Part shown: piece by piece, positions 1,123 through 21,253 of the stretch | Layout of the letters: every line of letters begins with the position of its first letter | How positions within the stretch are numbered: position 1 is the first letter of the stretch | Origin: Candidatus Kaiserbacteria bacterium | Lineage (GTDB): Bacteria > Patescibacteriota > Minisyncoccia > Phycocordibacterales > UBA918 | DNA length: 64,000 nt | NCBI GenBank assembly: GCA_016699245.1 | Contig: CP064968.1 | Coordinates: 512,317 to 576,316 of the forward strand | Direction of reading: 5' to 3' | Program-made: the position numbers and the translations under genes | The notes under the pieces: generated by a model | What the model was told of the DNA's origin: nothing | Databases searched by the model: none | The model's input: only the letters and a program-made list of their open reading frames with translations

Positions 1123-1188
1123 AACTTCCCTAGGGTTCCCCTAGGGAGATTTGTGGCATTCTTGGCAATCTTTTTGTATAGTGACTCT

Positions 1189-2355: not shown

Positions 2356-2426
2356 AGTCCACACGATTTCCTGAAACACATCGTACTCTTCGTAGGGGCT
2401 TATTTTCGTGGTATTATCACGCTACT

Positions 2427-4676
2427 ATGAGTGAACAAGAAAAAGACACGCAGCAAACTGCGCACATTCCCGAGATTTTTTTACAGCCCTATAATGCCCA
2501 AGAGCATGAGGAGAAGACCTATGCATTCTGGGAAGAATCTGGGTATTTTAATCCCGACACCTGCATCAAAGATGGAATTGCTGATGAAACAAAAGAGGCT
2601 TTTTCTATCGTCCTCCCTCCGCCAAATGTAACCGGCACACTTCACATGGGGCATGCCGCTATGCTCGCTATCGAGGACATTCTCGTGCGATACAATCGTA
2701 TGCAAGGGAAACCAACACTCTGGCTCCCCGGTACCGACTCCGCTGCTATTGCGACGCAGTCAAAGGTGGAGAAAATGATATACAAGGAAGAAGGCAAAAG
2801 TCGTTACGACTTAGGACGTGATGAACTCCTGCGCCGTATATATGCATTTGCCGAAGAAAGCAAAAACACCATAATCAATCAGACGAAGCACATGGGTTCC
2901 TCACTCGATTGGAGTCGCTACGCATTCACTCTCGATGATGCGCGGTATAAAGCAGTTACAACTGCATTCAAGCGCATGTATGATGCGGGACTTATTTATC
3001 GCGGTGCGCGTATTGTGAACTGGGACCCAAAGGGTCAGACCACTATTTCTGATGATGAGATTGTATACGAGGAGCGCACAACAACGATGTACACGTTTAC
3101 ATACAGCAAGGACTTCCCTATTCCTATCTCAACTACACGCCCCGAAACCAAAGTAGGTGACACTGCTGTTGCTGTACATCCTGATGATGAGCGGTACAAA
3201 GCATACGTGGGCAAGGAGTATGATGTGGTCTTTTGTGATGTACCACTCCATATCACCGTGGTTGCTGATGAGCATGTTGAAAAAGACTTTGGGACCGGTG
3301 CACTCGGTGTTACCCCTGCACACAGCCAAGTGGACTGGGAGATTGCAGACCGTCATAATCTTGCGCGCCCACAAGTAATCAATGAGTATGCAAAAATGAC
3401 GGTAGACGGCCGCCTTAACGGTATGAAGGTCGGTGAGGCACGTGAGAGTGTTGTTGCATTTCTTCGTGAGGAAGGACTTCTTCAAAAGGAAGAAGTCATT
3501 TCGCAAAACGTCTCCACCGCAGAGCGCACGGGCGCAATCATTGAGCCGCTTCCGAAATTGCAATGGTGGATTGATGTGAACAAGGAATTCACCATGGGGC
3601 ACTCAGAAATTCCTGGAATTACAGAAGGCGACACGGTCACTCTCAAAACCCTTATGCATACCGCTGTGGCCGGTGGTGGTATTACTCTTTTTCCTGACCG
3701 TTTTGAACGTGTATACGACAACTGGATTAATAATCTTCGCGACTGGTGTATTTCCCGCCAAATCTGGTATGGCCATCGTATTCCTGTGTGGTATAAAGGT
3801 GCCCTGGGGCAGGGCATCGATACAAATGGTGGAGAAATATACTGTGGTATTACTGCGCCAGAAGGCGAAGGCTGGGAGCAAGATCCCGACACACTCGACA
3901 CCTGGTTCTCTTCAGGTCTTTGGACATTCTCGACACTCGGCTGGCCTAATGAAACCGCCGACATGAAGCGATACCATCCCACCACACTGCTCGAGACAGG
4001 GTACGATATCCTCTTCTTTTGGGTAGCGCGTATGGTGCTCCTGAGCACATTCCACCTCGGGCAAGTGCCCTTTAAACATGTGTACCTTCACGGCCTTGTA
4101 CGTGATGCAAAGGGGAAGAAAATGTCGAAATCACTCGGCAATGTAATAGACCCTCTCGATATGATAGAAAAGTATGGTGCTGATGCCACACGTCTTTCAC
4201 TCATCATTGGTGCCGCACCCGGAAACGATGTACCACTTGCTGAAGACAAGGTGCGTGGATACAAGCACTTTGCAAACAAAGTCTGGAACATCAGTCGTTT
4301 CATCCTTACCAACATCGCTGATGCGGACTTGAGTTTCTCCCCCACTCTTTCACCACGTGACACCGAGATACTTACCGGACTCCATACTGCAGTTGCAGAA
4401 ATAACTACCGATATTGAAAAATACCATCTCTACCTCGCGGCGGAAAAAGCTTATCACTACGTCTGGCACGAACTTGCAGACGTCATACTCGAAGAATCAA
4501 AACCAATATTGAATGGGGAGGATACTGGTGCTCGTGCTGCGCGCCAATACGTGCTTCGTGAATGTCTCATTACCTCCCTCAAGATTCTTCATCCCTTCAT
4601 GCCGTTTGTAACCGAAACAATTTGGCAACATCTTCCAGATAGCATACGCGGAGATGAGCGCAAGAGGGCTGTGTGA
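2427..4676 (+). CDS. valS: Valine--tRNA ligase (class I aaRS), short form lacking the C-terminal coiled-coil
   Basis: PPPNVTGTLHMGHA (HIGH region), KMSKSLGN (KMSKS), WCISRQ, and the editing-domain motif TTRPETKVGDTAVAVHP. At 749 aa it ends right after the anticodon-binding domain. Confidence 0.9.
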   Translation: MSEQEKDTQQTAHIPEIFLQPYNAQEHEEKTYAFWEESGYFNPDTCIKDGIADETKEAFSIVLPPPNVTGTLHMGHAAMLAIEDILVRYNRMQGKPTLWLPGTDSAAIATQSKVEKMIYKEEGKSRYDLGRDELLRRIYAFAEESKNTIINQTKHMGSSLDWSRYAFTLDDARYKAVTTAFKRMYDAGLIYRGARIVNWDPKGQTTISDDEIVYEERTTTMYTFTYSKDFPIPISTTRPETKVGDTAVAVHPDDERYKAYVGKEYDVVFCDVPLHITVVADEHVEKDFGTGALGVTPAHSQVDWEIADRHNLARPQVINEYAKMTVDGRLNGMKVGEARESVVAFLREEGLLQKEEVISQNVSTAERTGAIIEPLPKLQWWIDVNKEFTMGHSEIPGITEGDTVTLKTLMHTAVAGGGITLFPDRFERVYDNWINNLRDWCISRQIWYGHRIPVWYKGALGQGIDTNGGEIYCGITAPEGEGWEQDPDTLDTWFSSGLWTFSTLGWPNETADMKRYHPTTLLETGYDILFFWVARMVLLSTFHLGQVPFKHVYLHGLVRDAKGKKMSKSLGNVIDPLDMIEKYGADATRLSLIIGAAPGNDVPLAEDKVRGYKHFANKVWNISRFILTNIADADLSFSPTLSPRDTEILTGLHTAVAEITTDIEKYHLYLAAEKAYHYVWHELADVILEESKPILNGEDTGARAARQYVLRECLITSLKILHPFMPFVTETIWQHLPDSIRGDERKRAV

Positions 4677-5461
4677 TGAATGGACAAGCCCAAATGGTAA
4701 AAAGGAAATTCTCCTTCCCAGCACCACTGCGGGGATTTCTTAATCTAAGATGGTACAATAGTCAAATGGGTTCGCTCAACTTTGCCATCGCCTTTCTTGC
4801 AGGACTTATTCCTGCACTTTTTTGGCTGTGGTTTTGGCTCCGTGAAGATAGGGCACATCCCGAGCCAAAGGCACTTCTCGCCACATCATTCGTCGCCGGA
4901 ATGCTCATCGTACCGCTCGTGCTTCCCCTTCAGCAATTCGCCATGGAGCGCTTCGACGGCGACAACCTGATTTTTGTATGGGTAATTATTGAAGAAGTAT
5001 TAAAGTACTCTGCGGCACTCATTGTGGTGCTCTGGAACAAAGCAGTCGACGAACCCATCGACGCAATCATCTACATGCTCACGATTGCACTCGGTTTTTC
5101 TGCACTCGAAAACGCCTTTTTCATTTTTAATCCACTCCAAGATGGTGAATTTGCCAACTCATTCATTACCGGCAATTTCCGTTTCCTTGGTGCCACACTT
5201 CTTCATGTACTTGCCTCAAGTACGGTAGGTGTCGCGATGGCACTTTCATACTATGCACGTAGTTGGGTAAAGGTACTCGTTGCTACCTTTGGTTTATTCC
5301 TTGCTGTCATATTGCATGCACTCTTTAATTTCTCTATAATGGATGCAAGCGGTGGTACCGTCCTCGTTGTCTTTATGTTTGTCTGGATGGGTATTGTCGT
5401 CCTCTTTATTCTCTTTGAAAAAGTGAAGTTACTAGAAAAAAAGCATCGTCGCATAATATGA
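4673..5461 (+). CDS. PrsW-like intramembrane metalloprotease family membrane protein
   Basis: Multi-TM protein with motifs spaced like PrsW/M82: EEVLKYSAAL (EExxK), FSALENAFF (FxxxEN), HVLASSTVG (HxxxxxxxG). Start overlaps the valS stop. Confidence 0.5.
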   Translation: MMNGQAQMVKRKFSFPAPLRGFLNLRWYNSQMGSLNFAIAFLAGLIPALFWLWFWLREDRAHPEPKALLATSFVAGMLIVPLVLPLQQFAMERFDGDNLIFVWVIIEEVLKYSAALIVVLWNKAVDEPIDAIIYMLTIALGFSALENAFFIFNPLQDGEFANSFITGNFRFLGATLLHVLASSTVGVAMALSYYARSWVKVLVATFGLFLAVILHALFNFSIMDASGGTVLVVFMFVWMGIVVLFILFEKVKLLEKKHRRII

Positions 5462-5961
5462 AAAAACCATCATTTCTCGAACGTATTACTGGCTCAATTA
5501 AACTCGATGCATCGTCTGATGATGGATTTGGAGAGGCACAAAATTTTGAAAAGGCCGATGTCCCTGAAGATGACACCATAGACCAAGAAACCTGGCGTCA
5601 ACAAGACGAGGAGGAACAAGATGGTGAACTTCCTATTGATATGTATCAAACACGAGATACCGTAGTGATTCGAGCTCTTGTAGCGGGTGTAAGCCCTGAA
5701 GATCTCAATATCTCTATCACCCGCGATATGGTAACTCTCAAGGGTCTTCGTGAAGAAGTACAGGAAGCACCTGACGAAGACTACTACCATCGAGAACTCT
5801 TCTGGGGCTCCTTCTCACGTTCTATCGTCCTTCCTGAGGAAATTGTCATTGATGAAGCAGAAGCGCGCGAGAAACATGGCCTTCTTGAAATTATTTTACC
5901 AAAGCTGGACAAAGGTCGCAGTGCTCGACTTACCGTAAAGAGCCATCACCTCGTGAAGTAA
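5458..5961 (+). CDS. Hsp20/alpha-crystallin family small heat-shock protein with an acidic N-terminal extension
   Basis: Alpha-crystallin domain pattern (PIDMYQTRDTVVIRALVAGVSPEDLNISI...ELFWGSFSRSIVLPEEI...GLLEIILPK). ATGA overlap with the upstream gene. Confidence 0.8.
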   Translation: MKKPSFLERITGSIKLDASSDDGFGEAQNFEKADVPEDDTIDQETWRQQDEEEQDGELPIDMYQTRDTVVIRALVAGVSPEDLNISITRDMVTLKGLREEVQEAPDEDYYHRELFWGSFSRSIVLPEEIVIDEAEAREKHGLLEIILPKLDKGRSARLTVKSHHLVK

Positions 5962-5976
5962 TTTATCAGACATGCA

Positions 5977-6013
5977 ATCCCCCAGACGCCTACGGCGTCT
6001 GGGGGATTTTTAG
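5977..6013 (+). terminator. Rho-independent terminator downstream of the hsp20 gene
   Basis: Perfect stem (atcccccagacgcc / ggcgtctgggggat) with loop tacg, followed by a T-run. Confidence 0.7.
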
Positions 6014-6025
6014 ACTCATCCTGAT

Positions 6026-6739
6026 ATGTTACACTTTTTGTCTATGAAAATACTTTGTCTGAATACGTGGTATGGGGGAAAACTAAAAAATGAGATTACC
6101 CAATTTTTTCATTCACACGCACGCTCCGTTGATATTTTTTGTCTACAAGAAACAGTTGACGCATTTGATACTATCGTCGAACCTTTTCTTGATTCATATA
6201 CACGTATTCAGCATGCAAAATCAATATCAGAGCAAGAAAGTTATACTCTTTCAATATTAATACGCAAAGATATTAAGATTCATGAACACGGGACGATACT
6301 TTCTGCTATACCAAAGACAGGACTTGATCAGTGGGTCATAGTCGAACGAGGTAACGAAAAATACTGGATTTGTAATTTTCATGGTATTGCGTATCCAGGC
6401 GAAAAAGAAGATAATCCCGAACGTCTATTTGCATCGAGGGCACTCATTGAGAAAGGTGCGCACTATACTCTTCCCCGTATTATTATGGGAGACTTTAATC
6501 TTCTTCCAACCACAGAAAGTATTACCATGTTTGATAGCGAAGGATACCGTGACCTTATCAAAGAGTATGAGATCAAGACGACACGGAATGAACATACGTG
6601 GAACCGGTATCCAGAAAAAAAGTTATTGCACTCTGATTATGCGTTTGTGAAGGGTGATGTGCGTGTAGAAGCATTTTCGGTTCTCCCTGATATTGTTTCG
6701 GATCATCAGCCACTCATGCTCGACGTGAGTGTCGTGTAA
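6026..6739 (+). CDS. Endonuclease/exonuclease/phosphatase (EEP) family protein
   Basis: EEP motifs ILCLNTW, CLQE, GDFNLLP and a C-terminal SDHQPL. Probable true start is MKILCLNTW at 6044. Confidence 0.75.
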   Translation: MLHFLSMKILCLNTWYGGKLKNEITQFFHSHARSVDIFCLQETVDAFDTIVEPFLDSYTRIQHAKSISEQESYTLSILIRKDIKIHEHGTILSAIPKTGLDQWVIVERGNEKYWICNFHGIAYPGEKEDNPERLFASRALIEKGAHYTLPRIIMGDFNLLPTTESITMFDSEGYRDLIKEYEIKTTRNEHTWNRYPEKKLLHSDYAFVKGDVRVEAFSVLPDIVSDHQPLMLDVSVV

Positions 6740-6853
6740 CATATCGGTGAACGAAACTACCCCACAGGACCTTTGATGAGTATACGCGCACCAATTTCTG
6801 TTTTATAATATGTATGTCGTTATTATGTTATCAACATATGGAGGTAATTTTTT

Positions 6854-7447
6854 ATGAATGAAATACCAGAACAACAGGCTCCAGAAAACTCACAGACAGA
6901 AGGCAAAAAGCAGGATTATACAAAATGGATTATTATAGGTGTTGTTGGACTTGTATTTATCTATGGTGCACAATCACTCTTCTCTCCTGAGCGTGCTATC
7001 GAGCGAGCTATTGAGGGGGCTTCGGGAGGTGACGTTGATATTAATATCGACGATATCGAAGATAATAGGAGTATGCGTGTTACCGGTGACGATGGTGGAG
7101 AATATAACATCTCTACAGGAAATGATGTTTCTCTTCCAGATAACTGGCCAAGTTCTGTATCTATCCCCTCAAGTGCACGTCTCAGCTACGCTGGTTCTAT
7201 GAATGCGGGTGACGCAGAATCAGTCGGTCTCTCTGCAGTCTATACCACAAAGGAATCTACTACTGAGGTTGCCAAATATTTCAAATCAACACTTGAGACA
7301 GCGGGTTGGGAAATTCAAGGGACAATGGCAACTGGTGATGGATCAATGATTACCGCAACAAAGGGTGAGGAAGAAAATGTTGCTGTTTATATTGGAAGTA
7401 CTGAAGATGAGACGACGGTTACCGTGAGCGTTCAAATGCCGAAGTAA
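6854..7447 (+). CDS. Hypothetical membrane-anchored protein
   Basis: 197 aa with one N-terminal TM (WIIIGVVGLVFIYGA) and an acidic, Ser/Thr/Gly-rich ectodomain. No recognised motifs. Confidence 0.5.
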   Translation: MNEIPEQQAPENSQTEGKKQDYTKWIIIGVVGLVFIYGAQSLFSPERAIERAIEGASGGDVDINIDDIEDNRSMRVTGDDGGEYNISTGNDVSLPDNWPSSVSIPSSARLSYAGSMNAGDAESVGLSAVYTTKESTTEVAKYFKSTLETAGWEIQGTMATGDGSMITATKGEEENVAVYIGSTEDETTVTVSVQMPK

Positions 7448-7625
7448 AGAACCCCACCCCAGAGGGGATGGGGCATTTGCACCCGTCAGTGCTGGGGTGG
7501 GACCGGGGGTTCTTTGCTAGCTGAGGATTCGGCTCCGCCGAAACTATATATTTGTCCATTCATCCACGGGGTCGAACCCCGTGGCATTCTGGACGAACTA
7601 GTAAAGAACCCCACTCCATGAATCG
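7447..7625 (+). repeat. Structured intergenic repeat element, copy A (hairpin plus conserved ~90-nt tail); second copy at 39839-39973
   Basis: Begins with the hairpin aaagaacccc-accccag...ctggggt-gggaccgggggttcttt, then the tail gctagctgaggattcggctccgccgaa..atatatttgtccat.catccacgggg...cattctggacgaac.agta, which copy B shares at roughly 85% identity by eye. It is flanked by the 15-nt direct repeats aaagaaccccac(c/t)cc at 7447 and 7603. Confidence 0.5.
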
Positions 7626-7735
7626 CGCCCAAAAAAAGTGGACAGCCATTGTTATTATTCTAAAATATGGTACTATATATACATTAGGGCTTCGGCCTCC
7701 GAGATACCCCGCAGCAATGCGGGGTATCGATGTAT

Positions 7736-8086
7736 TTAGACAAACTGACTAAAGGATTCTTTAATTTTTGCAAAATCAACTTCTCCAATTACTGCAATTT
7801 TGCGAATAAGTCTTTTACTACTAATCACTCGTGCTTGTGTTAGTTTTACATACACTGTTTTTATATACATCTTTTTTGTTTTTGAATCTTGTGTCTCAAC
7901 TTCTAGTGCGAAATGAAATTTATCTGAGCGTGCTTTGCTTGTGGTAGGCAGAACAAGCATAGTCTCTTTGTTGTAAACACGCATAATAATAACAGGGCGT
8001 TCAAAACTCTCGTTCTTTCCATCAATTTCTGCTCCAACATTTACACCAAGAGAACACCACCACACTTCACGTGGATATCCATACAC
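7736..8086 (-). CDS. MazF/PemK-family type II toxin (endoribonuclease-like), apparently orphan
   Basis: PemK/MazF-like pattern (PREVWWCSLGVNVGAEIDGKNESFERPVIIM...MLVLPTTSKARSDKFHF...SKTKKMYIKTVYVKLTQARVISSKRLIRKIAVIGEVDFAKIKESF). Only a GTG start is available. No convincing antitoxin ORF upstream (just an 18-codon ORF). Confidence 0.55.
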   Translation of the reverse strand: MYGYPREVWWCSLGVNVGAEIDGKNESFERPVIIMRVYNKETMLVLPTTSKARSDKFHFALEVETQDSKTKKMYIKTVYVKLTQARVISSKRLIRKIAVIGEVDFAKIKESFSQFV

Positions 8087-8199
8087 CTCTTTTTCTTCAA
8101 TATCAACTTTTTTTTAAGGTGTTCCACTTATCAAAATTTTTAGTATACTCACCATTCATGTTTTTATTATACCACCGCAGTAATCAATGAGATTATTTT

Positions 8200-8692
8200 G
8201 AGAACTTGGCGACTTCAAATGATTTGGTAGAGGTGAGGGGCGGGCTTGGCGCAACTCACATCAGTATTTTTGTTCGCTTCACTCCAAAAATACTAAGCCT
8301 AAAACAGTACCCCATACTGTTTTAGCTACCCTGACTCACTCGTGGCAGAGCCACATAGTTCCGTCTTTCAAATCATACTGATTCTGTTCAAGTTGCGCCA
8401 CAAGAGCACTTCCATTTTCTAAAACGCAAGCGTTAAGAAAATTTGGTCGTATAAATTTTATTTAAAATTTCGACAACTTTCTGAAATAGTTTCCCAAACT
8501 ATTTCAGCCCGCACGCACGATGCCTATGCATCGTGCTCCCTCCGGGGCGGGCTTGGCGTCCGCTAGTAATTCGCTGACGCTCATAACTAGCACCTGCCCG
8601 CGGTTTGCTGCTTCGTCGCTTTAGGAAAAGCGACTCATATCGCAAACCGTTCAAGCCCGCACGTAACGTGCCTATGCACGTTACTCCCTCAG
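8200..8692. repeat. Degenerate tRNA-Phe 3'-end copies (T-arm/acceptor-like) plus hairpins downstream of tRNA-Phe
   Basis: ggggcgggcttgg, resembling the Phe T-arm GGCGGTTCAAGCCCGCC, recurs at ~8233, ~8552 and in the tRNA at 8743. Two near-identical hairpin units, agcccgcacg[hairpin with ctat loop]ctccctc, sit at 8504-8553 and 8649-8700. An inverted repeat ttggcgcaact / agttgcgccaca brackets ~150 nt at 8247-8405. Confidence 0.45.
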
Positions 8693-8740
8693 CACAGCAC
8701 ATACAAAAAGTCCCCGGAGGGACTTTTTGTATGTGCTGTG
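8693..8740 (-). terminator. Long perfect hairpin immediately 3' of tRNA-Phe whose stem extends into the tRNA acceptor 3' strand
   Basis: cacagcacatacaaaaagtccc-cgga-gggactttttgtatgtgctgtg. On the minus strand the stem extends to CCCTCAGCACAGCACATACAAAAAGTCCC, a 29-bp perfect stem that includes the tRNA 3' acceptor strand CCCTCAGC. Confidence 0.55.
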
Positions 8741-8811
8741 CTGAGGGGCGGGCTTGAACCGCCGACCCTTTGTTCTTCAGACAAATGCTCTACCAACTGA
8801 GCTACCTCAGC
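8739..8811 (-). tRNA. tRNA-Phe (anticodon GAA)
   Basis: The minus-strand reading folds as a cloverleaf: acceptor GCTGAGG/CCTCAGC, D-arm TAGCTCAGTTGGTAGAGCA, anticodon stem-loop TTTGT-CTGAAGA-ACAAA (GAA), T-arm GGCGG-TTCAAGC-CCGCC, discriminator A. No CCA is encoded. Confidence 0.85.
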
Positions 8812-8984
8812 GAATGAGGAACCAAGCGCAAAAATTTACTTTTGCATTTGTGTTCCGAATGCAGCTGCGGGAAGCTATGCTTACCTCAGCGAATGCAGAT
8901 AGTACTCGAAGATTCCTCAACCCCCAGCAAAATCTGCTCACTGATAGTAGCATATTATATAAATCAGTACAGCGCGTTCTTATT

Positions 8985-9275
8985 TTACTGAGGGAGGAGG
9001 TTTTCTAAGCCTTTGAGCCCAGGTATTTCTCCGATACCCTGCCTGAACAAATCGTAATCTGATCCAAATGCTTCAAAATACGGCTGCAGAACATAGAAGT
9101 ATAAGGCGAATGGAAGCCCAATAAGCACCGCATACCACACAACACGTAACCAAAGACCAATCATGTCGTTTCGATACATCTTCTTGAGGAGAATGTTGTT
9201 TTGCTTCGTGAGTTCAGCATTCTCACGGAGAAGAGTCAGTATCTCAGTATGTGTGTCTATTTCCTTTTCATTCAT
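8985..9275 (-). CDS. Hypothetical small membrane protein
   Basis: 96-aa ORF between two tRNAs with one hydrophobic helix (IGLWLRVVWYAVLIGLPFALYFYVL). No recognisable motif. Confidence 0.35.
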   Translation of the reverse strand: MNEKEIDTHTEILTLLRENAELTKQNNILLKKMYRNDMIGLWLRVVWYAVLIGLPFALYFYVLQPYFEAFGSDYDLFRQGIGEIPGLKGLENLLPQ

Positions 9276-9331
9276 ATATGCATTATAGCAGATGACACAT
9301 AGTCAAAATGGGATATGTGGTTACAACGCTG

Positions 9332-9407
9332 TGGTGCCTCCACCCGGAATCGAACCAGGATTTTTTCCTTAGGACGGAATTGTTCTGATCCATTGAACTA
9401 TGGAGGC
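9332..9407 (-). tRNA. tRNA-Arg (anticodon CCT), CCA encoded
   Basis: Minus-strand reading GCCTCCA-TA-GTTC-AATGGATCA-GAAC-A-ATTCC-GTCCTAA-GGAAA-AAAT-CCTGG-TTCGATT-CCGGG-TGGAGGC-A-CCA. Anticodon loop is gTCCTAa, and the T-loop is the canonical TTCGATT. Confidence 0.8.
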
Positions 9408-9490
9408 TTGTTTCCTAATCTATAGGAATTTGTACTGTAACATAAAAACCTCAGTGTCCGAAGGATACCGAGGTTTTTATAGTGGAATAC

Positions 9491-9727
9491 TTATATCCCG
9501 AGCAATTCCTTCACCTTTGCTTCGTCGAAACCAACGATGACATCGTCACCAATGCGAATGACGGGGACTCCCATTTGACCAGTCATATCGACCATCTCCT
9601 TTCGCTTTTCAAGATCTGTTGCAACATTGTGCTCCTCAAAGGGAATATTATTGGCAGTGAAAAAATCTTTGGCCGAGTGACAAAAATGACACGTTGGTGT
9701 GCTGTAAATGATTACGTTTTTATCCAT
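9491..9727 (-). CDS. Glutaredoxin/NrdH-like thioredoxin-fold protein
   Basis: 78 aa with a CxxC active site (IYSTPTCHFCHSAKDFF) and Grx-like GVPVIRIGDDVIVGFD. A hairpin terminator follows at ~9425-9470. Confidence 0.75.
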   Translation of the reverse strand: MDKNVIIYSTPTCHFCHSAKDFFTANNIPFEEHNVATDLEKRKEMVDMTGQMGVPVIRIGDDVIVGFDEAKVKELLGI

Positions 9728-9773
9728 ATGAATAGTTTATATTACTAACTACGTACGAGCAGTATATACTAAA

Positions 9774-10175
9774 TTACCAAAATTTGAACTGTGCAAAAAA
9801 TGAATCGCTCTCATTCTTAGGTATTTCATTACCGAGTGGAAGTATCTCCCGTTTTTCCTCAGCACTCTCTGGTTCGTCTACCAAAATAATCACCTGTTCC
9901 CCTTCTTTTACCACATCAAAACGATTGCGCAATTCTTCTTCGATTCCCCGCTCATCGCGCAGATACTCTACCTTAGACTCAAGTACCGTAGCGCGCTCTT
10001 CGAGTTCATGAAGTTCATCCTCACGTATATTGAGTTTGTGTTTCATCTCTTCTGCCACAATGTAGCGATTATAGACTGAAAACGAAAGTACAATAGTAAT
10101 AAAGGCTAAAAATGCCACCATGGGCTTCGAGTACACAATACTTCGTATTTTGCGCTTTTCATGAAAATCGAACAT
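9774..10175 (-). CDS. FtsB/DivIC-like septum-formation protein (single TM plus coiled coil)
   Basis: 133 aa with an N-terminal TM (MVAFLAFITIVLSFSVY) followed by a heptad-rich coiled coil (EEMKHKLNIREDELHELEERATVLESKVEYLRDE). Confidence 0.45.
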   Translation of the reverse strand: MFDFHEKRKIRSIVYSKPMVAFLAFITIVLSFSVYNRYIVAEEMKHKLNIREDELHELEERATVLESKVEYLRDERGIEEELRNRFDVVKEGEQVIILVDEPESAEEKREILPLGNEIPKNESDSFFAQFKFW

Positions 10176-10398
10176 GTGGTATTATTGTACCATTCTCGCT
10201 TTAGATTTCCTCAAAAGTTCTTAAAATTTTGAGAACTTGGTGGAGATAGATTAATCGAATATGGTACTACCACTATGAGTTTCTTATTTCACAAAAAGAC
10301 AAAGACGGCTATTAAATGGGTTTGGTCTGTCATCGCGATTATTATTGCTTTAAGTATGATTTTTGCATATTCGGCCGGAAGTGGTTTTTAGTTTTAGA

Positions 10399-10437
10399 GA
10401 AAATCCCCTGCAGCCTTTGGCTGCAGGGGATTTTTTA
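10399..10437. terminator. Bidirectional rho-independent terminator at the 3' end of lepA
   Basis: aaaatcccctgcagcc-tttg-gctgcaggggatttttt: perfect 15-bp stem flanked by A/T runs. Confidence 0.7.
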
Positions 10438-12219
10438 TTCCGCCTTAATAATTTTCATAAAGACGTCTGGGGGAATGTTCACTTTCGCATGCGCAAGCAT
10501 GCGTTTCTTTCCCCGTTTTTGCTTTTCACGAAGTTTCATCTTGCGGGTAATGTCCCCACCATACAGATAGCCTGTCACATCCTTTTTCATTGCAGAAAGA
10601 GTGCGTGATGAAATAATACGTCCCATCGCCTTTGCTTGAATTTTTGTCACAAAAAGCTGTCGCGGGAGTGTGTGATAGAGTTTCTCCACAATTGCTTTTG
10701 CGTCTATTTCTGCGCGACGCGTTCCTACCACCCGTGAAAAGGCTGGTACAATCTCCTCTGCAATAAGTACATCAAGACGCGTCACATCCGCAGAGCGCAT
10801 CTCTGCGATTTCATACGAGAGTGATGCGTACCCACTCGTGGCATTTTTCAGTCGGTCAAAGAAATTGCGCATGAGTTCACGAAGTGGCATCTCAACGGTA
10901 AGCAAATTACGTCCGTCCCCAAAAACTTCAGTTTCCAAAACACTTGCCTCGTGGTCATAGAGAAGTGTCATCATAGCGCCCAGGTATGCCGGGGGCAAAA
11001 TAATCTGTGCAAGAATCCATGGCTCTCGTATCTCAACCTTTGTTCCAAAATCGGGAAAACGGGAGGCTGCATATACTTCCTCCATGCGTCCATCGGGATA
11101 CGTTATTTCATACACAATCGACGGTGAGGTGATGGTAATCTCGATAGCAAACTCGCGTCGCAGACGCTCGGTCACTATCTCCAAGTGAAGCATCCCCAGA
11201 AAGCCACAGCGAAAACCACGCCCTAGGAGACCTGAGGATTCCTCTTCATACGAAAGTGAGGAATCAGACATCTTGAGACGGTCGAGTGCTTGTTTTAGAA
11301 TGGTAAAATCATCCTGACTCTCAGGAAACACTGATGCCCATACGACAGGGGGTACCGACTGATACCCCACCAAAGGCTCTCTACTCCCCTTCTCAAGGGC
11401 GAGTGTATCACCCACTGATGCGACACCAGGTTCCTTAATCCCCGTCACAATATACCCAATTTCACCCGCATTGAGTTCTTCTACCGGAGTTTCTTGTGGA
11501 GACTGGACACCCACTTCAAGCACGTTAAATACCCGCCCCGCAGCAATGAAACGGAGTGAATCACCTTTTCGCACTTTACCATCGAAGACACGAAAATACA
11601 CAATAATTCCTCGATGGTTTGAGTAGTGAAAGTCAAACACAAGACCACGGAAGGAATCGTTGGATGCTTCTTTTGGAGGAGGGATACGCTCACAAATACC
11701 ATCAAGTAACTCCTTTACATTCTCCCCCGTCTTCCCTGATACATACTGAATTTCCTCGGGACTACACCCCAAGAGCGTCACAACCTCATTCATCACTTCT
11801 TCACGGCGCGAGTGTGGGACATCAATTTTTGTGAGGACGGGAATAATGGTAAGCCCCTGCTCGCGGGCCATACTGAGCACGGAGAGCGTCTGTGCCTGTA
11901 CTCCCTGTGTACTATCTACCAAAAGAAGTACACCTTCTACCGCCTTGAGTGCCCGCGATACTTCATAGGAAAAGTCTATATGTCCAGGGGTGTCGATGAG
12001 ATTAAGTTCATACACATCACCATTAAAAGTATGCTCCATGCGTACCGGCTGCATTTTAATAGTGATACCACGCTCGCGCTCAAGATCCATCGAGTCTAAG
12101 ACTTGTTCTTTCATTTTACGAGCTTCAACCGTATGCGTGATTTCAAGCATACGATCAGCCAACGTTGACTTGCCGTGGTCAATGTGGGCGATAATAGAAA
12201 AATTTCGTATATGCTTCAT
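10435..12219 (-). CDS. lepA: Elongation factor 4 (translational GTPase LepA)
   Basis: N-terminal IRNFSIIAHIDHGKSTLADR (G1), DTPGHIDF (G3), and a LepA-specific C-terminal domain. 594 aa. Confidence 0.9.
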   Translation of the reverse strand: MKHIRNFSIIAHIDHGKSTLADRMLEITHTVEARKMKEQVLDSMDLERERGITIKMQPVRMEHTFNGDVYELNLIDTPGHIDFSYEVSRALKAVEGVLLLVDSTQGVQAQTLSVLSMAREQGLTIIPVLTKIDVPHSRREEVMNEVVTLLGCSPEEIQYVSGKTGENVKELLDGICERIPPPKEASNDSFRGLVFDFHYSNHRGIIVYFRVFDGKVRKGDSLRFIAAGRVFNVLEVGVQSPQETPVEELNAGEIGYIVTGIKEPGVASVGDTLALEKGSREPLVGYQSVPPVVWASVFPESQDDFTILKQALDRLKMSDSSLSYEEESSGLLGRGFRCGFLGMLHLEIVTERLRREFAIEITITSPSIVYEITYPDGRMEEVYAASRFPDFGTKVEIREPWILAQIILPPAYLGAMMTLLYDHEASVLETEVFGDGRNLLTVEMPLRELMRNFFDRLKNATSGYASLSYEIAEMRSADVTRLDVLIAEEIVPAFSRVVGTRRAEIDAKAIVEKLYHTLPRQLFVTKIQAKAMGRIISSRTLSAMKKDVTGYLYGGDITRKMKLREKQKRGKKRMLAHAKVNIPPDVFMKIIKAE

Positions 12220-12346: not shown

Positions 12347-14974
12347 CTACGTCTCCTGCCCATACCCCTGCACTTCCACCTTGACTGATTGATCAACAAT
12401 CGGACAATCTATGGTGAATGTGGTGTTCACGCTGACGAAATATGATTGTGACCCAAGGCCTGTGGTTGACGGTACCCAGGGCATGCTATTTCTAGTGATG
12501 GCACAATTAATTTCCATGCCGGTACCCCATTCAACGAGTACGTCTTTCCCACTACTTGGCACCACACGTGGGTCTGCCTTGATAAAGGGTTCTGTATTCA
12601 CATCAACTACTTTACTATCGAGGAGTCCTGGATACGGTGCGCAGGTGAGTGAGTACGTGGTGTCACTTGTGAGGGATGAGGATAGTTCTGAGCCTGATGT
12701 CCCACCCCATGTATCTACACCACCAGTGACTTTTGGTGTACATCCACCTGTGGGTGTAATAGACCAATCGATAGTTGATTTTGTGTCGTATGCAATTGGA
12801 GAAGTGACCGTGAGGTTACCGGTTGGCTTTGGATGTACGGTGAAGCTTTTCTCCATGCAGTTGTTGGTCTCTCCGCCACTCGGTATAAACTCTGGGTTAC
12901 TACGGTTAGAATCGACACAGTACTGAATATACAAGGTGCCTGATCCACTTGGGTCATCTAAGATGACATTGTCTGTGTCAATAGCGTTTACTGCAAAACC
13001 TGCGAAATGTGAGGAAAATGGGATGATGTCTATCCAGGGATCGGAAAGATTCCACCGGTATGAGAAATTATCTTCAAAGTCATAAGGGGTAGGGATAGCT
13101 CCAATATTTGTCATAGTTCCGTCCAAGACAATGTCTTCCCCGTCGAAGAATACGTTTCCTGCTGAGGGGACGGTGGCGGTAAAGTCGAGGGGTTTGAGGT
13201 CAGGGAGTGGACAAGCGTCGGGAGCAGTTGCGTCGACCTGTGCTGACCATGCAGATGAGCCTCGTGCGTTATTGGCACGAACTTTGTATGAATGCAAAGA
13301 ATTTGCAGCGAGACCGCTGTGGGTGTATGTGGTGAGGGTGGTGGGGGTATATACAGTATCAAGTTCAATGTCGTAGCTGGTGGCACCAGTTGAGGCGTTC
13401 CAGGAGAGGTCTATGGCATCATTGCTGCAAATACCACTTGGGATTGCAGTGAGACCGGTGGGAGTTGCAGGAACAGTGAGGAAGGAACTCACCGTGCCGT
13501 AGCCGGTGCCTCCTGCGTTTCCTGCGATAGCACAGTAGTAGTATGTGGTGGCGGGGGTAGTGGTGAGGGGTTGGCTGAATAGCATAGGGGCACTTCCTGC
13601 ACCGAGGGTGGTACCTCCGGCGAGCGGAACACGGGTACCAAAGGTGTCATTGCAGGAGCCAGGGTCGGTAGTGGAATAGCGGAACCAGCCGGTGGCAGCA
13701 CCACCATTGGGGTTACCGGTACCGTATATAGTGTCTCCCACTACAGGGAGGGTAACGACGGTGGGGGCTGCGGGGAGATTGATGGTTGCTTGTGCGGTTC
13801 TCCATGCGGAGACACTACTACTTGTGTCCACGGTGCGTGCTTGGAAGGTCTTTACGCCAGGGGTTGGCCATGTGTATGGAGATGGTTGTGCGGTACCTGA
13901 GGAGACCCATCCAGTGGTGGCATCTACTGTTCCGCTATTGTCCCAGTCGATTTGATAGTAGATATTGTTAACCTCGGGGTCGGTGCCGGTGAAGTTAAAG
14001 GAGTATGCAGTGTTTATGAGACCAGTGAATGGTTGCGGGGTGATGACGGGGGCGGTGGGGGGGTTGTTGGGGTTAACGGCGGTGAGATTGAAGGAAATTG
14101 TCCGAGAGGGGAATGAGACGACGTAGTCGCCATTGTTTAGACAATACTCACCTGAACGAGATCTTCCTACAATTCTTTCAGCAAAACCACTGCAGCTTTG
14201 TATAGTGATTCCATAAGTTGATTCACGTCTAAAGGGTAATCCAGCAGTGCTCTGCAGAGGTACGTTATTACCTCGACATCCTGGTCCAGTGTAGCTGTTT
14301 ATATAACGTACATAAAACTTCCCGTATGTACTCGAAAAATTCATAGAGAGAGACACTGCGCCCGGACTTACTATCGTACACACATTGCCAGCACACGAAA
14401 GATTAGCACTTGGTGAAGATAGCCCAGAAGTCGAGGGGTGCACATTCAAAAGATAGTATGAATGTATTGTATCAGCTCCACCGCCTCCACTCACAACTGG
14501 CCACACTCTTGTACTAGCACGATCACTTTCTAAACAGCCATGAAGAAGAGGCCCAGCACCTGCCACCCAATGGCCAAAAGGACTATCTTGACTGTATCCT
14601 CCACCAAACCAACTAATGTCTGTATCAACAGCGGGTATTTGTTCAATACGAACTCTTGTCCCCACAGGAAGAGAAGAATTATTTGCTATCACTACGCCCG
14701 TATCATGATTCACAAGACGTGCCTTGTAATTTATGTTAGCATTTGCTCCGCTCTCGATACTCGTATTCCAACCGCACGTGCCAACTGGACAGGTGCGTGC
14801 ATTGGATGGGTTTGTGTATTCAATAGCCCAGTTCCAAAAAGCAGCAAGACTTGGCAAAGATCTTACGTCAGCATTCGCATCCTTCATAATCTCCTGCGCC
14901 TCCACCCGCTCCCCCACCCCGAACATCCCAACCATAAGGAGTACCAGAACTGATATCATTAACGTTGTTTTCAT
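12347..14974 (-). CDS. Large secreted surface protein with fibronectin type III-like domains, Thr/Gly/Ser-rich
   Basis: Signal peptide (MKTTLMISVLVLLMVGMFGVGERVEAQE). FN3-like segments (e.g. PTGLTAIPSGICSNDAIDLSWNASTGATSYDIELD...YKVRANNARGSSAWS and ATGWFRYSTTDPGSCNDTFGTRVPL...TTYYYCAIAGNAGGTGYG). 875 aa. Confidence 0.6.
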   Translation of the reverse strand: MKTTLMISVLVLLMVGMFGVGERVEAQEIMKDANADVRSLPSLAAFWNWAIEYTNPSNARTCPVGTCGWNTSIESGANANINYKARLVNHDTGVVIANNSSLPVGTRVRIEQIPAVDTDISWFGGGYSQDSPFGHWVAGAGPLLHGCLESDRASTRVWPVVSGGGGADTIHSYYLLNVHPSTSGLSSPSANLSCAGNVCTIVSPGAVSLSMNFSSTYGKFYVRYINSYTGPGCRGNNVPLQSTAGLPFRRESTYGITIQSCSGFAERIVGRSRSGEYCLNNGDYVVSFPSRTISFNLTAVNPNNPPTAPVITPQPFTGLINTAYSFNFTGTDPEVNNIYYQIDWDNSGTVDATTGWVSSGTAQPSPYTWPTPGVKTFQARTVDTSSSVSAWRTAQATINLPAAPTVVTLPVVGDTIYGTGNPNGGAATGWFRYSTTDPGSCNDTFGTRVPLAGGTTLGAGSAPMLFSQPLTTTPATTYYYCAIAGNAGGTGYGTVSSFLTVPATPTGLTAIPSGICSNDAIDLSWNASTGATSYDIELDTVYTPTTLTTYTHSGLAANSLHSYKVRANNARGSSAWSAQVDATAPDACPLPDLKPLDFTATVPSAGNVFFDGEDIVLDGTMTNIGAIPTPYDFEDNFSYRWNLSDPWIDIIPFSSHFAGFAVNAIDTDNVILDDPSGSGTLYIQYCVDSNRSNPEFIPSGGETNNCMEKSFTVHPKPTGNLTVTSPIAYDTKSTIDWSITPTGGCTPKVTGGVDTWGGTSGSELSSSLTSDTTYSLTCAPYPGLLDSKVVDVNTEPFIKADPRVVPSSGKDVLVEWGTGMEINCAITRNSMPWVPSTTGLGSQSYFVSVNTTFTIDCPIVDQSVKVEVQGYGQET

Positions 14975-16455: not shown

Positions 16456-16560
16456 ATGCGTTAATTATATATACACCACCATTCTTTAGGAAGATGTGGG
16501 GGGGGTATAAGTGAGTTGAGCGTGTACTGTATAGATACAATACTTTTGCATTTCAATATC

Positions 16561-16594: not shown

Positions 16595-16599
16595 CTTTG

Positions 16600-20811: not shown

Positions 20812-20884
20812 AAGTAATAGTTGTAATTAATACGTATCTTTTATTAAACTTCTCCAAAGTATACTTAATATACTATCACACACA

Positions 20885-21250: not shown

Positions 21251-21253
21251 TCA

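What the first reader, a model, noticed from the sequence alone, without database searches (positions are those of the whole stretch)
8200..8900. tRNA-Phe followed by a 29-bp perfect hairpin built from its own 3' end, plus degenerate T-arm/acceptor copies and hairpin units
Immediately 3' of tRNA-Phe the trailer is perfectly complementary to the tRNA acceptor 3' strand plus additional sequence (CCCTCAGCACAGCACATACAAAAAGTCCC / GGGACTTTTTGTATGTGCTGTGCTGAGGG). Further downstream are two units of the form T-arm-like fragment, hairpin (ctat loop), complement of T-arm (TGCGGGCTTGAA; TGCGGGCTGAA), plus a third degenerate CCAAGCCCGCCCCTCACC at ~8233. A copy of the tRNA 5' end (gctgaggta) sits ~70 nt upstream at ~8883. 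This looks like accumulated attachment-site scars at a tRNA integration hotspot, or a dedicated tRNA 3'-processing or termination structure. An orphan MazF-like toxin lies just beyond (7736-8086).
Basis: seen in the sequence. Interest (0 to 1): 0.6.

Follow-up and report, generated by a model that had tools for sequence, protein, structure and literature searches.

The report
Structured RNA module clamping tRNA end
The hairpin and tRNA fragments behind this tRNA-Phe gene belong to an undescribed family of folded RNA elements in candidate-phyla-radiation bacteria, each carrying a stretch that pairs with the 3' end of the gene in front of it; they are not integrase scars.

Summary
tRNA-Phe(GAA) lies on the minus strand (8739-8811). 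A perfect 29-bp hairpin (8686-8747) uses its last 9 nt, and the listed tRNA-end fragments are all present and non-random.

They are parts of a conserved, modular element. It consists of a long first hairpin, a small branch hairpin, an antisense stretch to the T-stem and T-loop, two conserved hairpins (P2, P3) and often a direct copy of the tRNA 3' end. The window holds two tandem units (8540-8695, 8233-8543) and a related leader unit (8812-8895).

A covariance model finds the element in sense orientation directly behind tRNAs of about 20 amino-acid identities, behind tmRNA and after some protein genes. The hosts are Kaiserbacteria/Paceibacteria-type MAGs and groundwater metagenomes. Covariation is strong: 95% of cells are paired and 32 of 33 pairs show double changes. 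G.U far outnumbers A.C on the tRNA strand, so it acts as RNA. Each copy's antisense stretch matches its own upstream flank.

No Rfam family matches, and no integrase, reverse transcriptase or transposase lies within the 25 kb scanned.

Best reading: a co-transcribed trailer RNA that clamps the upstream RNA's 3' end, acquired by insertion with flank duplication. Its biochemical role is inferred, not shown.

The parts
8944..8952 (-). Probable extended -10 promoter element (TGCTACTAT) of the tRNA-Phe transcription unit. It lies upstream of the leader unit.
   Evidence: Inferred by comparison. The same TGnTAnnAT or TACAAT box, preceded by TTGAAA, sits at the equivalent place upstream of tRNA-Phe in relatives. 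Coordinates checked. The simple promoter scan did not list it.
8812..8895 (-). Leader unit (~79 nt) inside the pre-tRNA 5' leader. It contains a copy of the leader CATTC plus the acceptor 5' strand GCTGAGG (8884-8890) and a small hairpin AAGC-ATA-GCTT (8872-8882). These are followed by the imperfect complement CCGCAGC (8864-8870), a second hairpin and TCCTCATTC. The first hairpin is a 12-position mimic of the acceptor plus T-stem minihelix.
   Evidence: 14-nt exact repeat with the tRNA start (D8). Alignment A4 and its fold. Model R2 scores 74.9 bits here. It also hits directly 5' of tRNA-Phe in 11 relatives and 5' of tRNA-Arg in L058, where the complement matches tRNA-Arg.
8739..8811 (-). tRNA-Phe (anticodon GAA). 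CCA is not encoded; the discriminator A is followed by C.
   Evidence: ARAGORN; Rfam RF00005 at 72.6 bits.
8686..8747 (-). First hairpin of the element: 29 perfect base pairs with loop TCCG (8715-8718). The 5' arm is tRNA nt 65-73 (the last T-stem nucleotide, the acceptor 3' strand and the discriminator A) plus 20 nt of trailer. The 3' arm ends in GTGCTGAGGG (X1'). The tip, GTCCC/GGGAC followed by TTTTT, is terminator-like.
   Evidence: I1. An equivalent hairpin occurs in relatives with different sequence but kept pairing. In 73 family members it has 1481 Watson-Crick pairs, 32 G.U and 2 A.C, with a median of 20 bp.
8663..8684 (-). Branch hairpin hpA of unit 1 (GTAACGTG-CATAGG-CACGTTAC), flanked by unpaired A (8685) and GT (8661-8662).
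   Evidence: All nine hpA pairs show double-sided changes in the family (helix 1). The branch lies opposite tRNA nt 64/65 in 25 of 35 units from 10 tRNA identities.
8649..8660 (-). X2' of unit 1: GCGGGCTTGAAC, a perfect complement of tRNA nt 53-64 (T-loop and T-stem 3' strand).
   Evidence: I16. It co-varies with each species' own tRNA.
8540..8695 (-). Unit 1 as matched by the covariance model. It comprises X1', hpA, X2', P2 (8602-8648), a junction GCGGGCAGGT (8592-8601), P3 (8562-8591, tip GAGCG-TCAG-CGAA) and D1, a direct partial copy of the tRNA 3' end (GCCAAGCCCGCCCC, 8544-8557).
   Evidence: Model R1 scores 91.6 bits, E = 1.4e-22. Structure from A1/A2. This unit is absent from the closest genome L001.
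8506..8543 (-). Start of unit 2: an X1' remnant GGAGGG (8538-8543), hpA2 (GCACGATG-CATAGG-CATCGTGC, 8515-8536) and a short X2' GCGGGCT (8506-8512).
   Evidence: (D1). It is the ortholog of the single unit of L001, which has the same hpA sequence.
8440..8507 (-). Module B: a perfect 12-bp hairpin CTGAAATAGTTT-GGG-AAACTATTTCAG (8481-8507) plus a degenerate second part.
   Evidence: I17. The same module occurs in L001, L040 and L042 beside other tRNAs.
8251..8372 (-). Core of unit 2: P2 with the conserved internal loop (GAC-GGAACTATGT...ACGAGTGA-GTC, 8333-8365), an extra hairpin (8300-8324), and P3 (8251-8299, tip GGAGTGAAGCGAAC).
   Evidence: Model R1 scores 20.7 bits, E = 0.0086, at 8269-8372. 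Coordinates. The L001 ortholog scores 85.4 bits.
8233..8250 (-). D2: GCCAAGCCCGCCCCTCAC, a direct copy of the tRNA 3' end. Fourteen nt (AAGCCCGCCCCTCA) are identical to tRNA nt 57-70.
   Evidence: (D2).

Best explanation
The hairpin and the tRNA-end fragments are parts of a previously undescribed family of modular, structured RNA elements of Paceibacteria/Kaiserbacteria-type CPR bacteria.

**What it is (shown)**
- Each unit lies on the same strand as, and directly behind, a tRNA, a tmRNA or occasionally a protein gene.
- Its layout is: X (the 3' end of the upstream gene), a long first hairpin, a small branch hairpin (hpA), X' (antisense to X), P2, P3, and often a direct copy of X (D).
- For tRNAs, X' covers the acceptor 3' strand, T-stem 3' strand and T-loop.
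- P2 has a GA-rich internal loop. P3 is long, with a conserved CUUAG/CUUAG U.U mismatch and a GA-rich tip.
- The window carries two such units in tandem behind tRNA-Phe, plus an analogous leader unit in front of it.

**How it most likely works (inferred)**
- The unit is transcribed with the tRNA by read-through of the first hairpin.
- In that RNA, X' clamps the 3' end of the upstream RNA into a 20-40 bp three-way-junction duplex that competes with the cloverleaf.
- This long duplex would act as a processing or turnover signal, for example for the double-strand-specific RNase III. It would separate or dispose of read-through transcripts.
- P2-P3 would be a protein-binding module.

**Origin (inferred).** The units arose by insertion at gene 3' ends with duplication of the flank (D) and have since been inherited and kept by selection on RNA structure.
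For: **Conservation at the same locus**
- 18 of 42 tRNA-Phe genes in LepA-syntenic relatives carry the element.
- The antisense segments follow each species' own tRNA sequence, including CCA where it is encoded.

**Structure**
- In A1, 24 of 33 pairs show compensatory changes.
- In A2 (43 copies), 95.2% of cells are paired and 32 of 33 pairs have double-sided changes. Slid controls give 31-42% paired.

**Strand and RNA level**
- All hits are in tRNA-sense orientation. Of 165 hits, 114 have a same-strand tRNA within 500 nt on their 5' side and 3 have an opposite-strand one.
- G.U to A.C is 43:10 in the core and 32:2 in the first hairpin.

**Generality**
- Elements follow tRNA-Gly, Arg, Val, Ser and Tyr in the genome loci.
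- In metagenomes they follow tRNAs with 34 different anticodons, four tmRNAs and rplB-type gene ends.

**Flank matching**
- 91 of 115 units hold a perfect inverted copy of at least 9 nt of their own flank; the control gives 17.
- 52 of 115 hold a direct copy of at least 9 nt; the control gives 4.
- X' matches the real upstream X better than D in 101 of 115 units.
- Where the acceptor stem has a G.U pair, X' is the Watson-Crick complement of the 3' strand (3 of 3).

**Other points**
- The branch point is opposite tRNA nt 64/65 in 25 of 35 units, and in 12 of 19 non-Phe units.
- The clamp fold is predicted 7-19 kcal/mol more stable than cloverleaf plus X':D.
- Empty and filled tRNA-Val sites show that the first hairpin arrives with the unit.
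- No Rfam family matches.
Against: - No expression or RNA-end data exist. Read-through of the first hairpin is inferred only from selection on its lower stem.
- RNase III involvement and protein binding to P2-P3 are guesses.
- Sequestering the tRNA 3' half seems counter-productive for a tRNA gene. Real tRNAs gain stability from tertiary contacts and modifications that the energy model ignores.
- Only about a quarter of tRNA genes carry the element (40 of 157), so it is dispensable for tRNA maturation as such.
- Patchy presence, tandem copy-number differences (the window has a unit that L001 lacks) and decayed copies fit a selfish insertion as well as a host function.
- How X' comes to match any flank is unexplained.
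- The covariation counts come from model-fitted alignments, which lean towards the modelled structure.
Confidence: 0.6

Rival explanations
1. A selfish, non-autonomous mobile element (MITE- or SINE-like). It inserts at gene 3' ends and duplicates the target (D). Its RNA fold serves only its own spread or makes the insertion harmless; the host gains nothing.
For: - Presence is patchy at orthologous sites: tRNA-Val is filled in some relatives and empty in others, and 40 of 157 tRNAs carry an element.
- Tandem arrays and copy-number differences occur between relatives.
- Decayed fragments exist (L060, L074).
- Direct flank copies resemble target-site duplications.
- The modules combine as a mosaic.
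Against: - There is no sign of recent activity. Core identity between distant copies on one contig is 0.50-0.87, the same as between contigs (mean 0.66).
- Orientation is strictly sense.
- There are no conserved terminal inverted repeats, because the ends are flank-derived.
- No transposase, RT or integrase lies nearby.
- The element is kept at the tRNA-Phe locus across a whole clade, with compensatory evolution.
Confidence: 0.22
2. Each unit is a self-contained tRNA-like RNA. X' paired with D would form an acceptor/T-stem mimic of the neighbouring tRNA, so that RNase P, RNase Z or the CCA-adding enzyme process and stabilise the embedded P2-P3 RNA (natural tRNA scaffolding or punctuation).
For: - The branch hairpin sits where nt 8-48 leave the acceptor/T stack.
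- Many D copies include the discriminator plus C and are followed by their own hairpin (L006, L036, L055, L065, L070, L080).
- In L006 and L036 the minimum-free-energy fold pairs the tRNA 5' strand with D.
- The leader unit is a 12-position minihelix mimic.
Against: - X' follows the real upstream X rather than D in 101 of 115 units, and D is missing or shorter than 9 nt in 63 of 115.
- In the window, D1 keeps only 3-4 nt of the acceptor strand.
- ARAGORN and the Rfam tRNA model do not recognise the units.
- Copies after protein genes have no tRNA-like ends.
Confidence: 0.1
3. DNA-level palindromes. The inverted copies would be by-products of fold-back or template-switch replication at terminator hairpins (quasi-palindrome correction), with no RNA function.
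For: - X' is a perfect Watson-Crick copy of whatever flank lies upstream, including protein-gene ends.
- It is the complement of the 3' strand, not a copy of the 5' strand.
- The window hairpin is 29 of 29 perfect.
Against: - G.U to A.C is 32:2 in the hairpins, where neutral decay of a DNA palindrome would give about 1:1.
- The U.U mismatch in P3 is conserved.
- The branch point is fixed at nt 64/65.
- P2 and P3 are conserved and are not palindrome extensions.

Template switching may still explain how X' is first created.
Confidence: 0.05
4. Accumulated attL/attR scars of integrase-mediated islands at a tRNA integration hotspot, or simply an intrinsic terminator that happens to overlap the tRNA.
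For: - Direct repeats of the tRNA 3' end are present.
- tmRNA genes are also occupied.
- Downstream gene content is variable, including a MazF-like gene.
- The hairpin tip is terminator-like.
Against: - No integrase or remnant was found.
- The units are conserved folded RNAs.
- The element also occurs after protein genes.
- Inverted copies and hpA are unexplained by att sites.
- The overlap with the tRNA is conserved in dozens of genomes rather than accidental.
- Only 42% of first hairpins are terminator-like.
Confidence: 0.03

Closest known systems
Bacterial mosaic intergenic repeats (REP/BIME, ERIC, Neisseria NIME/Correia, pneumococcal BOX/RUP); comparison from general knowledge
   Same: - Short (100-300 nt), hairpin-rich and non-coding.
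- Present in many copies per genome.
- Placed in transcribed intergenic DNA at gene 3' ends.
- Built from modules that combine in different orders.
- Presence is patchy among relatives.
   Different: - Here the closing segments are not fixed element ends. They are an inverted and a direct copy of each copy's own flank.
- Copies are strictly sense-oriented.
- About 70% of the covariance-model hits lie within 500 nt behind a same-strand tRNA (114 of 165), and others follow tmRNA or sit at contig starts.
- Internal hairpins show deep compensatory evolution.
- No associated transposase is known.
tRNA/tmRNA-gene attachment sites of integrative elements (genomic islands, prophages, tycheposons); general knowledge
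   Same: - Insertion next to the 3' end of tRNA and tmRNA genes.
- An intact tRNA followed by direct repeats of its 3' end.
- Arrays of partial repeats.
   Different: - There is no integrase and no cargo.
- The inserted unit is a ~150-nt conserved RNA fold.
- An inverted copy of the target is present.
- Protein-gene ends are also used.
Guide-target architectures: group I intron P1/internal guide sequence, retroviral primer-binding site, H/ACA pseudouridylation pocket, tracrRNA anti-repeat with RNase III; general knowledge
   Same: - An RNA segment complementary to an adjacent or partner RNA end, next to protein-binding hairpins.
- The region of tRNA that is paired (acceptor 3' strand, T-stem 3' strand and T-loop) is the one a retroviral primer-binding site uses.
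- The guide is split around a hairpin, as in an H/ACA pocket.
- A long perfect duplex, like a repeat:anti-repeat pair.
   Different: - None of the defining proteins or boxes was found or tested.
- The pairing includes the unprocessed trailer, not mature CCA.
- No target nucleotide is left unpaired at the junction.
- The element acts, if at all, in cis.
tRNA 3' external transcribed spacers and terminators (E. coli 3'ETS-leuZ sponge; leuX and proline tRNA terminators, PMC2811032, PMC5291269)
   Same: A structured RNA directly after a tRNA in the same transcript. The stem-loop starts within a few nucleotides of the tRNA end and must be removed during maturation.
   Different: - In those cases the stem does not use the tRNA's own acceptor and T-arm strand.
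- They are single-locus features, not a multi-copy family with conserved downstream hairpins.
tRNA-like minihelix mimics (mascRNA-type punctuation, viral tRNA-like structures, tmRNA tRNA-like domain); general knowledge
   Same: The leader unit and the X':D helix reproduce the acceptor plus T-stem stack of the neighbouring tRNA.
   Different: - They are not recognised by tRNA models.
- They lack a T-loop.
- The helix is longer than 12 bp.
- X' tracks the real tRNA rather than the mimic's own 3' strand.

Membership tests
Integrase attachment site at a tRNA gene (genomic island or prophage att scars) | Tyrosine or serine integrase gene, or a remnant, adjacent to the tRNA | tested here: not met
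   Pfam scans of 18 ORFs (window positions 523-10,175 and 14,971-25,273) found only housekeeping domains and a PemK toxin; the LepA homolog (10,435-12,219) and the 875-aa ORF (12,347-14,974) were not scanned.
Integrase attachment site at a tRNA gene (genomic island or prophage att scars) | Direct repeat of the tRNA 3' end bounding the inserted DNA | tested here: met
   GGGGCGGGCTTG occurs three times. D2 shares 14 nt with the tRNA. In the family, 52 of 115 units have a direct flank copy of at least 9 nt, against 4 in the control.
Integrase attachment site at a tRNA gene (genomic island or prophage att scars) | Inserted DNA is a gene-carrying element | tested here: not met
   The units are 150-310 nt with no ORF longer than 67 aa, and they are conserved as RNA folds.
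Rho-independent terminator | GC-rich stem-loop immediately followed by a U tract | tested here: inconclusive
   The tip GTCCC-TCCG-GGGAC is followed by TTTTT, but the stem continues for 29 bp and the scan did not list it. Only 64 of 152 first hairpins in the family meet a crude tip-plus-T-run test.
Rho-independent terminator | Transcripts end there | not testable with these tools
   No expression data are available. G.U bias in the lower stem argues that at least some transcripts read through.
Any described RNA family (Rfam 15) | Covariance-model match | tested here: not met
   Only the tRNA matches at gathering score. At E <= 10 there are only weak miRNA-hairpin-type matches, both in window 7500-9500 and in a typical unit, L036 13200-13650.
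tRNA or tmRNA gene (extra or permuted copies) | Recognised by ARAGORN or the Rfam tRNA/tmRNA models | tested here: not met
   Also, X' is the complement of the 3' strand rather than a copy of the tRNA 5' strand (3 of 3 informative G.U cases).
MITE (miniature inverted-repeat transposable element) | Conserved terminal inverted repeats shared by all copies | tested here: not met
   The closing segments differ per copy and equal the local flank.
MITE (miniature inverted-repeat transposable element) | Insertion in either orientation, with near-identical copies within a genome | tested here: not met
   Same-strand to opposite-strand tRNA on the 5' side is 114 to 3. Within-contig distant copies are 50-87% identical, like unrelated copies.
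REP/BIME-like mosaic intergenic repeats | Short structured modules combined in variable order at gene 3' ends | tested here: met
   The first hairpin, hpA, P2-P3, module B and the leader unit occur in different combinations.
REP/BIME-like mosaic intergenic repeats | Associated RAYT/IS200-like transposase in the genome | not tested
   Only 64 kb of this genome was available, and none was seen in the 25 kb scanned.
Type III toxin-antitoxin (RNA repeats upstream of a Kid/MazF-fold toxin) | Short tandem RNA repeats specifically linked to the toxin gene | tested here: not met
   The element family occurs at over 150 sites without such a gene. The MazF-like gene is absent from the same locus in L001, L046 and L006.

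The most novel reading that the evidence does not exclude
X' may be a programmable antisense guide, split around hpA like an H/ACA pocket or a bridge-RNA loop, and presented by a P2-P3 protein-binding scaffold. In that case the element would be the RNA half of an unknown RNA-guided system of CPR bacteria. It would direct an enzyme to nucleotides 64/65 of its cognate tRNA or tmRNA, or to the matching gene end, for cleavage, modification, quality control or recombination. The flank-matched guide would be written during insertion by a fold-back copying step.
Probability: 0.12. Interest if true: 0.9.

Novelty: new variant of a known kind. Interest (0 to 1): 0.68.

Why it matters
CPR/Patescibacteria have tiny genomes and little non-coding DNA. 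Even so, about a quarter of the tRNA genes sampled here drag along 150-500 nt of conserved, folded RNA. Each copy is tailored by base pairing to the 3' end of the gene in front of it, and that tailoring has no described counterpart among bacterial repeats or RNA families.

If the clamp controls maturation or disposal of tRNA and tmRNA precursors, it points to a lineage-specific RNA-processing pathway. If it is a mobile element, it implies an insertion mechanism that writes an inverted copy of the target into the element. Either way it supplies a covariance model, with more than 160 examples, for a new RNA class that annotation pipelines currently leave blank.

Tried and rejected
- **Extra, permuted or split tRNA, or tmRNA.** Rejected. 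ARAGORN and Rfam find nothing.
- **Known RNA families.** None matches, even at E <= 10.
- **Unit as a degenerate duplicate of the tRNA gene.** Rejected. At acceptor G.U pairs, X' is the complement of the 3' strand.
- **Link to tRNA genes lacking encoded CCA.** None: 14 of 98 against 34 of 199, p = 0.6.
- **Recent transposition burst.** Not seen.
- **Phage origin.** One chance hit in viral contigs. Phage GenBank matches cover only the tRNA itself.
- **Integrase, RT or transposase near the locus.** None.
- **Exact look-up of the LepA protein.** Not on record.
- **RNA made from the plus strand (antisense to the tRNA).** Rejected on G.U/A.C counts and orientation.
- **Hammerhead, k-turn or box C/D resemblance of the P2 loop and hairpin tips.** Considered by eye only. 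No consensus is met, so these stay as unverified leads.
- **Literature.** Three full-text searches found no description of such an element in CPR.
- **ToxI-like antitoxin for the neighbouring MazF-like gene.** Rejected, because the family is independent of that gene.
Full report
**1. Check of the observation**

tRNA-Phe(GAA) lies on the minus strand at 8739-8811 (ARAGORN; Rfam 72.6 bits).

Directly 3' of it is a perfect 29-bp inverted repeat, 8686-8714 and 8719-8747, with a 4-nt loop. Its 5' arm begins with tRNA nt 65-73: the last nucleotide of the T-stem, the acceptor 3' strand and the discriminator.

The two 'units' are a 51-nt direct repeat. Its 36-nt core pattern occurs exactly twice, against 0.00 expected. 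GGGGCGGGCTTG occurs three times against 0.14 expected. A 14-nt copy of the leader plus tRNA 5' end lies 79 nt upstream.

The fragments are not additional tRNAs. The 616-nt region folds with z of about -15 on either strand.

**2. Organism and relatives**

A LepA-based scan of one genome per species returned 80 loci. All are Patescibacteria MAGs titled Kaiserbacteria, Paceibacterota, Nomurabacteria, Yonathbacteria or Campbellbacteria. Many are labelled 'uncultured Candidatus Saccharibacteria'. The best match, L001, has 96% LepA identity.

The order LepA, tRNA-Arg(CCT), tRNA-Phe is kept in about 45 of these loci.

**3. The same architecture recurs behind tRNA-Phe in relatives**

Read on the tRNA strand, the layout is as follows:
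- The tRNA 3' end.
- A long, nearly perfect hairpin.
- The complement of the acceptor 3' strand (X1'), which includes the complement of CCA where CCA is encoded.
- An unpaired A, an 8-9 bp branch hairpin (hpA), then unpaired GT.
- The complement of the T-stem 3' strand and T-loop (X2').
- P2, then P3.
- A direct copy of the tRNA 3' end (D).

The complementary segments follow each species' own tRNA sequence. L015 and L017, for example, have different acceptor and T-stem sequences and matching X'.

Thirteen units aligned well. RNAalifold gave 33 pairs, 24 of them with compensatory changes.

**4. Not restricted to tRNA-Phe**

A covariance model (R1) found 53 hits in the window plus the 80 loci. 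Many follow tRNA-Gly, Arg, Val, Ser or Tyr on the same strand, with X' and D matching that tRNA. In these loci 40 of 157 tRNA genes carry an element, including 18 of 42 tRNA-Phe genes.

A core DNA pattern returned at least 120 metagenome stretches. Of its 124 matches:
- 75 lie within 700 nt behind a same-strand tRNA, covering 34 anticodons.
- Four lie behind tmRNA genes.
- Some lie behind the stop codon of rplB-type genes.
- Two are chance matches, L105 and the single viral-contig hit L081.

R1 then recovered 122 units in 100 of these metagenome loci.

Of 165 modelled units, 114 have a same-strand tRNA within 500 nt on their 5' side. Only 3 have an opposite-strand tRNA there.

**5. It is an RNA structure on the tRNA strand**

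On 43 copies, 95.2% of cells are paired and 32 of 33 pairs show double-sided changes. Slid controls give 31-42% paired. This alignment was fitted to the model, which leans the counts towards the modelled structure.

In tRNA-sense orientation G.U outnumbers A.C by 43 to 10 in the core. In the first hairpin of 73 units there are 1481 Watson-Crick pairs, 32 G.U pairs and only 2 A.C mismatches. The median stem is 20 bp and the longest is 41 bp.

Neutral decay of a DNA palindrome would give roughly equal numbers. The lower stem, which includes the part that pairs with the tRNA end, is therefore selected as sense RNA. That implies read-through of the hairpin tip. Only 64 of 152 first hairpins look terminator-like.

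**6. Each copy is tailored to its flank**

- Of 115 units, 91 contain a perfect inverted copy of at least 9 nt of their own upstream flank. Against another locus's flank the figure is 17.
- Of the same 115, 52 end in a direct copy of at least 9 nt, against 4 in the control.
- X' matches the real upstream sequence better than it matches D in 101 of 115 units. The maintained pairing is therefore X:X', a clamp on the upstream RNA's 3' end, rather than the unit's own closing stem.
- In three tRNAs whose acceptor stem has a G.U pair, including the G3.U70 pair of tRNA-Ala, X' is the Watson-Crick complement of the 3' strand and not a copy of the 5' strand. The unit is therefore not a degenerate tRNA duplicate.
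- The branch hairpin sits opposite tRNA nt 64/65 in 25 of 35 units from ten tRNA identities, and in 12 of 19 non-Phe units. That is the acceptor/T-stem boundary.

**7. Energetics**

Nearest-neighbour folding prefers the clamp by 7-19 kcal/mol over cloverleaf plus X':D.

Where D is complete (L006, L036), the minimum-free-energy fold pairs the tRNA 5' strand with D and leaves the clamp inside.

These numbers ignore tRNA tertiary structure, modification and co-transcriptional folding order.

**8. Origin and dynamics**

Orthologous tRNA-Val sites are either empty or filled. In the empty sites (L038, L039, L031) the next gene's ATG follows about 21 nt after the tRNA and there is no hairpin. In the filled sites (L042, L036) a hairpin plus unit lies between them. 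The first hairpin therefore arrives with the unit.

The window has two units. L001 has only the ortholog of unit 2, so unit 1 (8540-8695) is an extra copy.

Copies at different loci of one contig are no more alike than copies from different contigs (0.50-0.87 against a mean of 0.66). A few tandem neighbours are 84-91% identical. The family is therefore old, with occasional local duplication and no recent burst.

There is no link to encoded CCA.

Pfam scans of 18 ORFs in window positions 523-25,273 showed no integrase, RT or transposase domain. LepA (10,435-12,219) and the 875-aa ORF (12,347-14,974) were not scanned.

**9. The upstream copy of the tRNA 5' end**

It belongs to a second element, a ~79-nt leader unit at 8812-8895. 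It lies between the probable promoter (TGCTACTAT, 8944-8952) and the tRNA.

It consists of a copy of the acceptor 5' strand, a 4-bp stem with a GNRA loop or triloop, the complement of that strand, and a second hairpin.

Model R2 finds it directly 5' of tRNA-Phe in 11 further loci. It also finds it 5' of tRNA-Arg in L058, where the complement matches tRNA-Arg.

Its logic is the same as that of the trailer units: flank copy, hairpin, inverted copy, core, then the real flank.

A third module, module B (8440-8507), is shared with L001, L040 and L042.

**10. Interpretation**

Shown:
- A new family, absent from Rfam.
- Its members are modular, sense-oriented, structurally constrained RNA elements at the 3' ends of tRNA, tmRNA and some protein genes in Paceibacteria-type CPR bacteria.
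- Each copy is complementary to its own upstream flank.

Inferred:
- The units are read-through transcripts.
- X' clamps the upstream 3' end in a long three-way-junction duplex.
- That duplex acts as a processing or turnover signal, with RNase III as the obvious candidate.
- P2-P3 binds a protein.
- The units arose by insertion with flank duplication.

How X' comes to match any flank is unexplained. Either it is copied by fold-back synthesis at insertion, or it is selected afterwards.

Rivals, in decreasing likelihood:
- A purely selfish MITE/SINE-like element.
- An autonomous tRNA-like scaffolded RNA.
- DNA-level palindrome extension.
- Integrase scars or a plain terminator.

**11. Comparison with the known**

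The element resembles REP/BIME-type mosaic repeats in size, modularity and position. It resembles tRNA att sites in the direct repeats. It resembles guide-target RNAs in the antisense segment. It fails the defining features of each (see the membership table).

Three literature searches found no prior description.

**12. Verdict**

The tRNA-Phe hairpin is the first stem of a widespread, undescribed CPR RNA element. Its function remains to be shown experimentally.

Noticed in passing
window 7736-8160 (minus): The PemK/MazF-like ORF starts at a GTG. An ATG at 8157-8159 opens a short frame (MNGEYTKNFDKWNTLKKS*) that would join the toxin frame if the A8 run at about 8103-8110 were one base shorter. 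This could be a frameshift, an assembly error or a slippery run. No antitoxin ORF is evident. The gene is absent from the same locus in L001, L046 and L006.
   Followed up: partly
window 7450-7620 (plus strand as read): A second strongly structured non-coding stretch (z = -8.2 for 7450-7735). About 100 nt of it (7495-7608) has three copies elsewhere in L006 (907-1006, 1104-1156, 5102-5214). It is another repeat family, unrelated in sequence to the tRNA-trailer units.
   Followed up: partly
L001-L080, about 12.7-17 kb in each locus: The orientation of tRNA-Arg(CCT), and in five loci of tRNA-Phe, relative to LepA flips among related genomes. This suggests repeated small inversions of single tRNA genes.
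   Followed up: no
L138 1091-1689; L167 377-978; L173 2996-3591; L176 1143-1731: The same element follows tmRNA genes, with X' complementary to the tmRNA 3' end. In L138, TGGTGGAGATG pairs with CATCTCCACCA. In L167, D repeats at least 19 nt, including the start of the trailer.
   Followed up: partly
L185 about 9930-10184; L090 about 11027-11260: Elements lie directly after the stop codon of an rplB-like gene. X' is complementary to the last codons. In L185 a direct copy of the gene end is followed by a second terminator-like hairpin.
   Followed up: partly
L191 7799-8062: A group I intron (Rfam 60.9 bits) lies just upstream of one element copy. The host gene was not identified.
   Followed up: no
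All loci, tRNA 3' ends: Only about 16% of tRNA genes in these genomes encode CCA. In most, the acceptor stem is followed by A-C-A (discriminator A, C, A), whether or not an element follows.
   Followed up: partly
L038 about 21140-21170; L039 about 21570-21600: tRNA-Val(GAC) is followed after only about 21 nt by the ATG of a conserved gene, with no hairpin or promoter room. This suggests tRNA-mRNA co-transcription. In L042 and L036 the element sits in that gap.
   Followed up: no
window 20906-21235 (minus): RNase P RNA (class A) scores only 116 bits against a gathering score of 100, so it is a divergent CPR version.
   Followed up: no
window 8538-8547 versus 8712-8721: The junction between D1 and unit 2 (CCCCGGAGGG) is the exact reverse complement of the tip of the long hairpin (CCCTCCGGGG). 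This is either coincidence or a trace of an inversion or flip of the hairpin tip.
   Followed up: no
Record titles of L001-L080: Many MAGs whose LepA is 72-96% identical to that of this window are titled 'uncultured Candidatus Saccharibacteria', while their neighbours in the ranking are titled Kaiserbacteria or Paceibacterota. This is probably a labelling artefact of the submitting pipeline.
   Followed up: no
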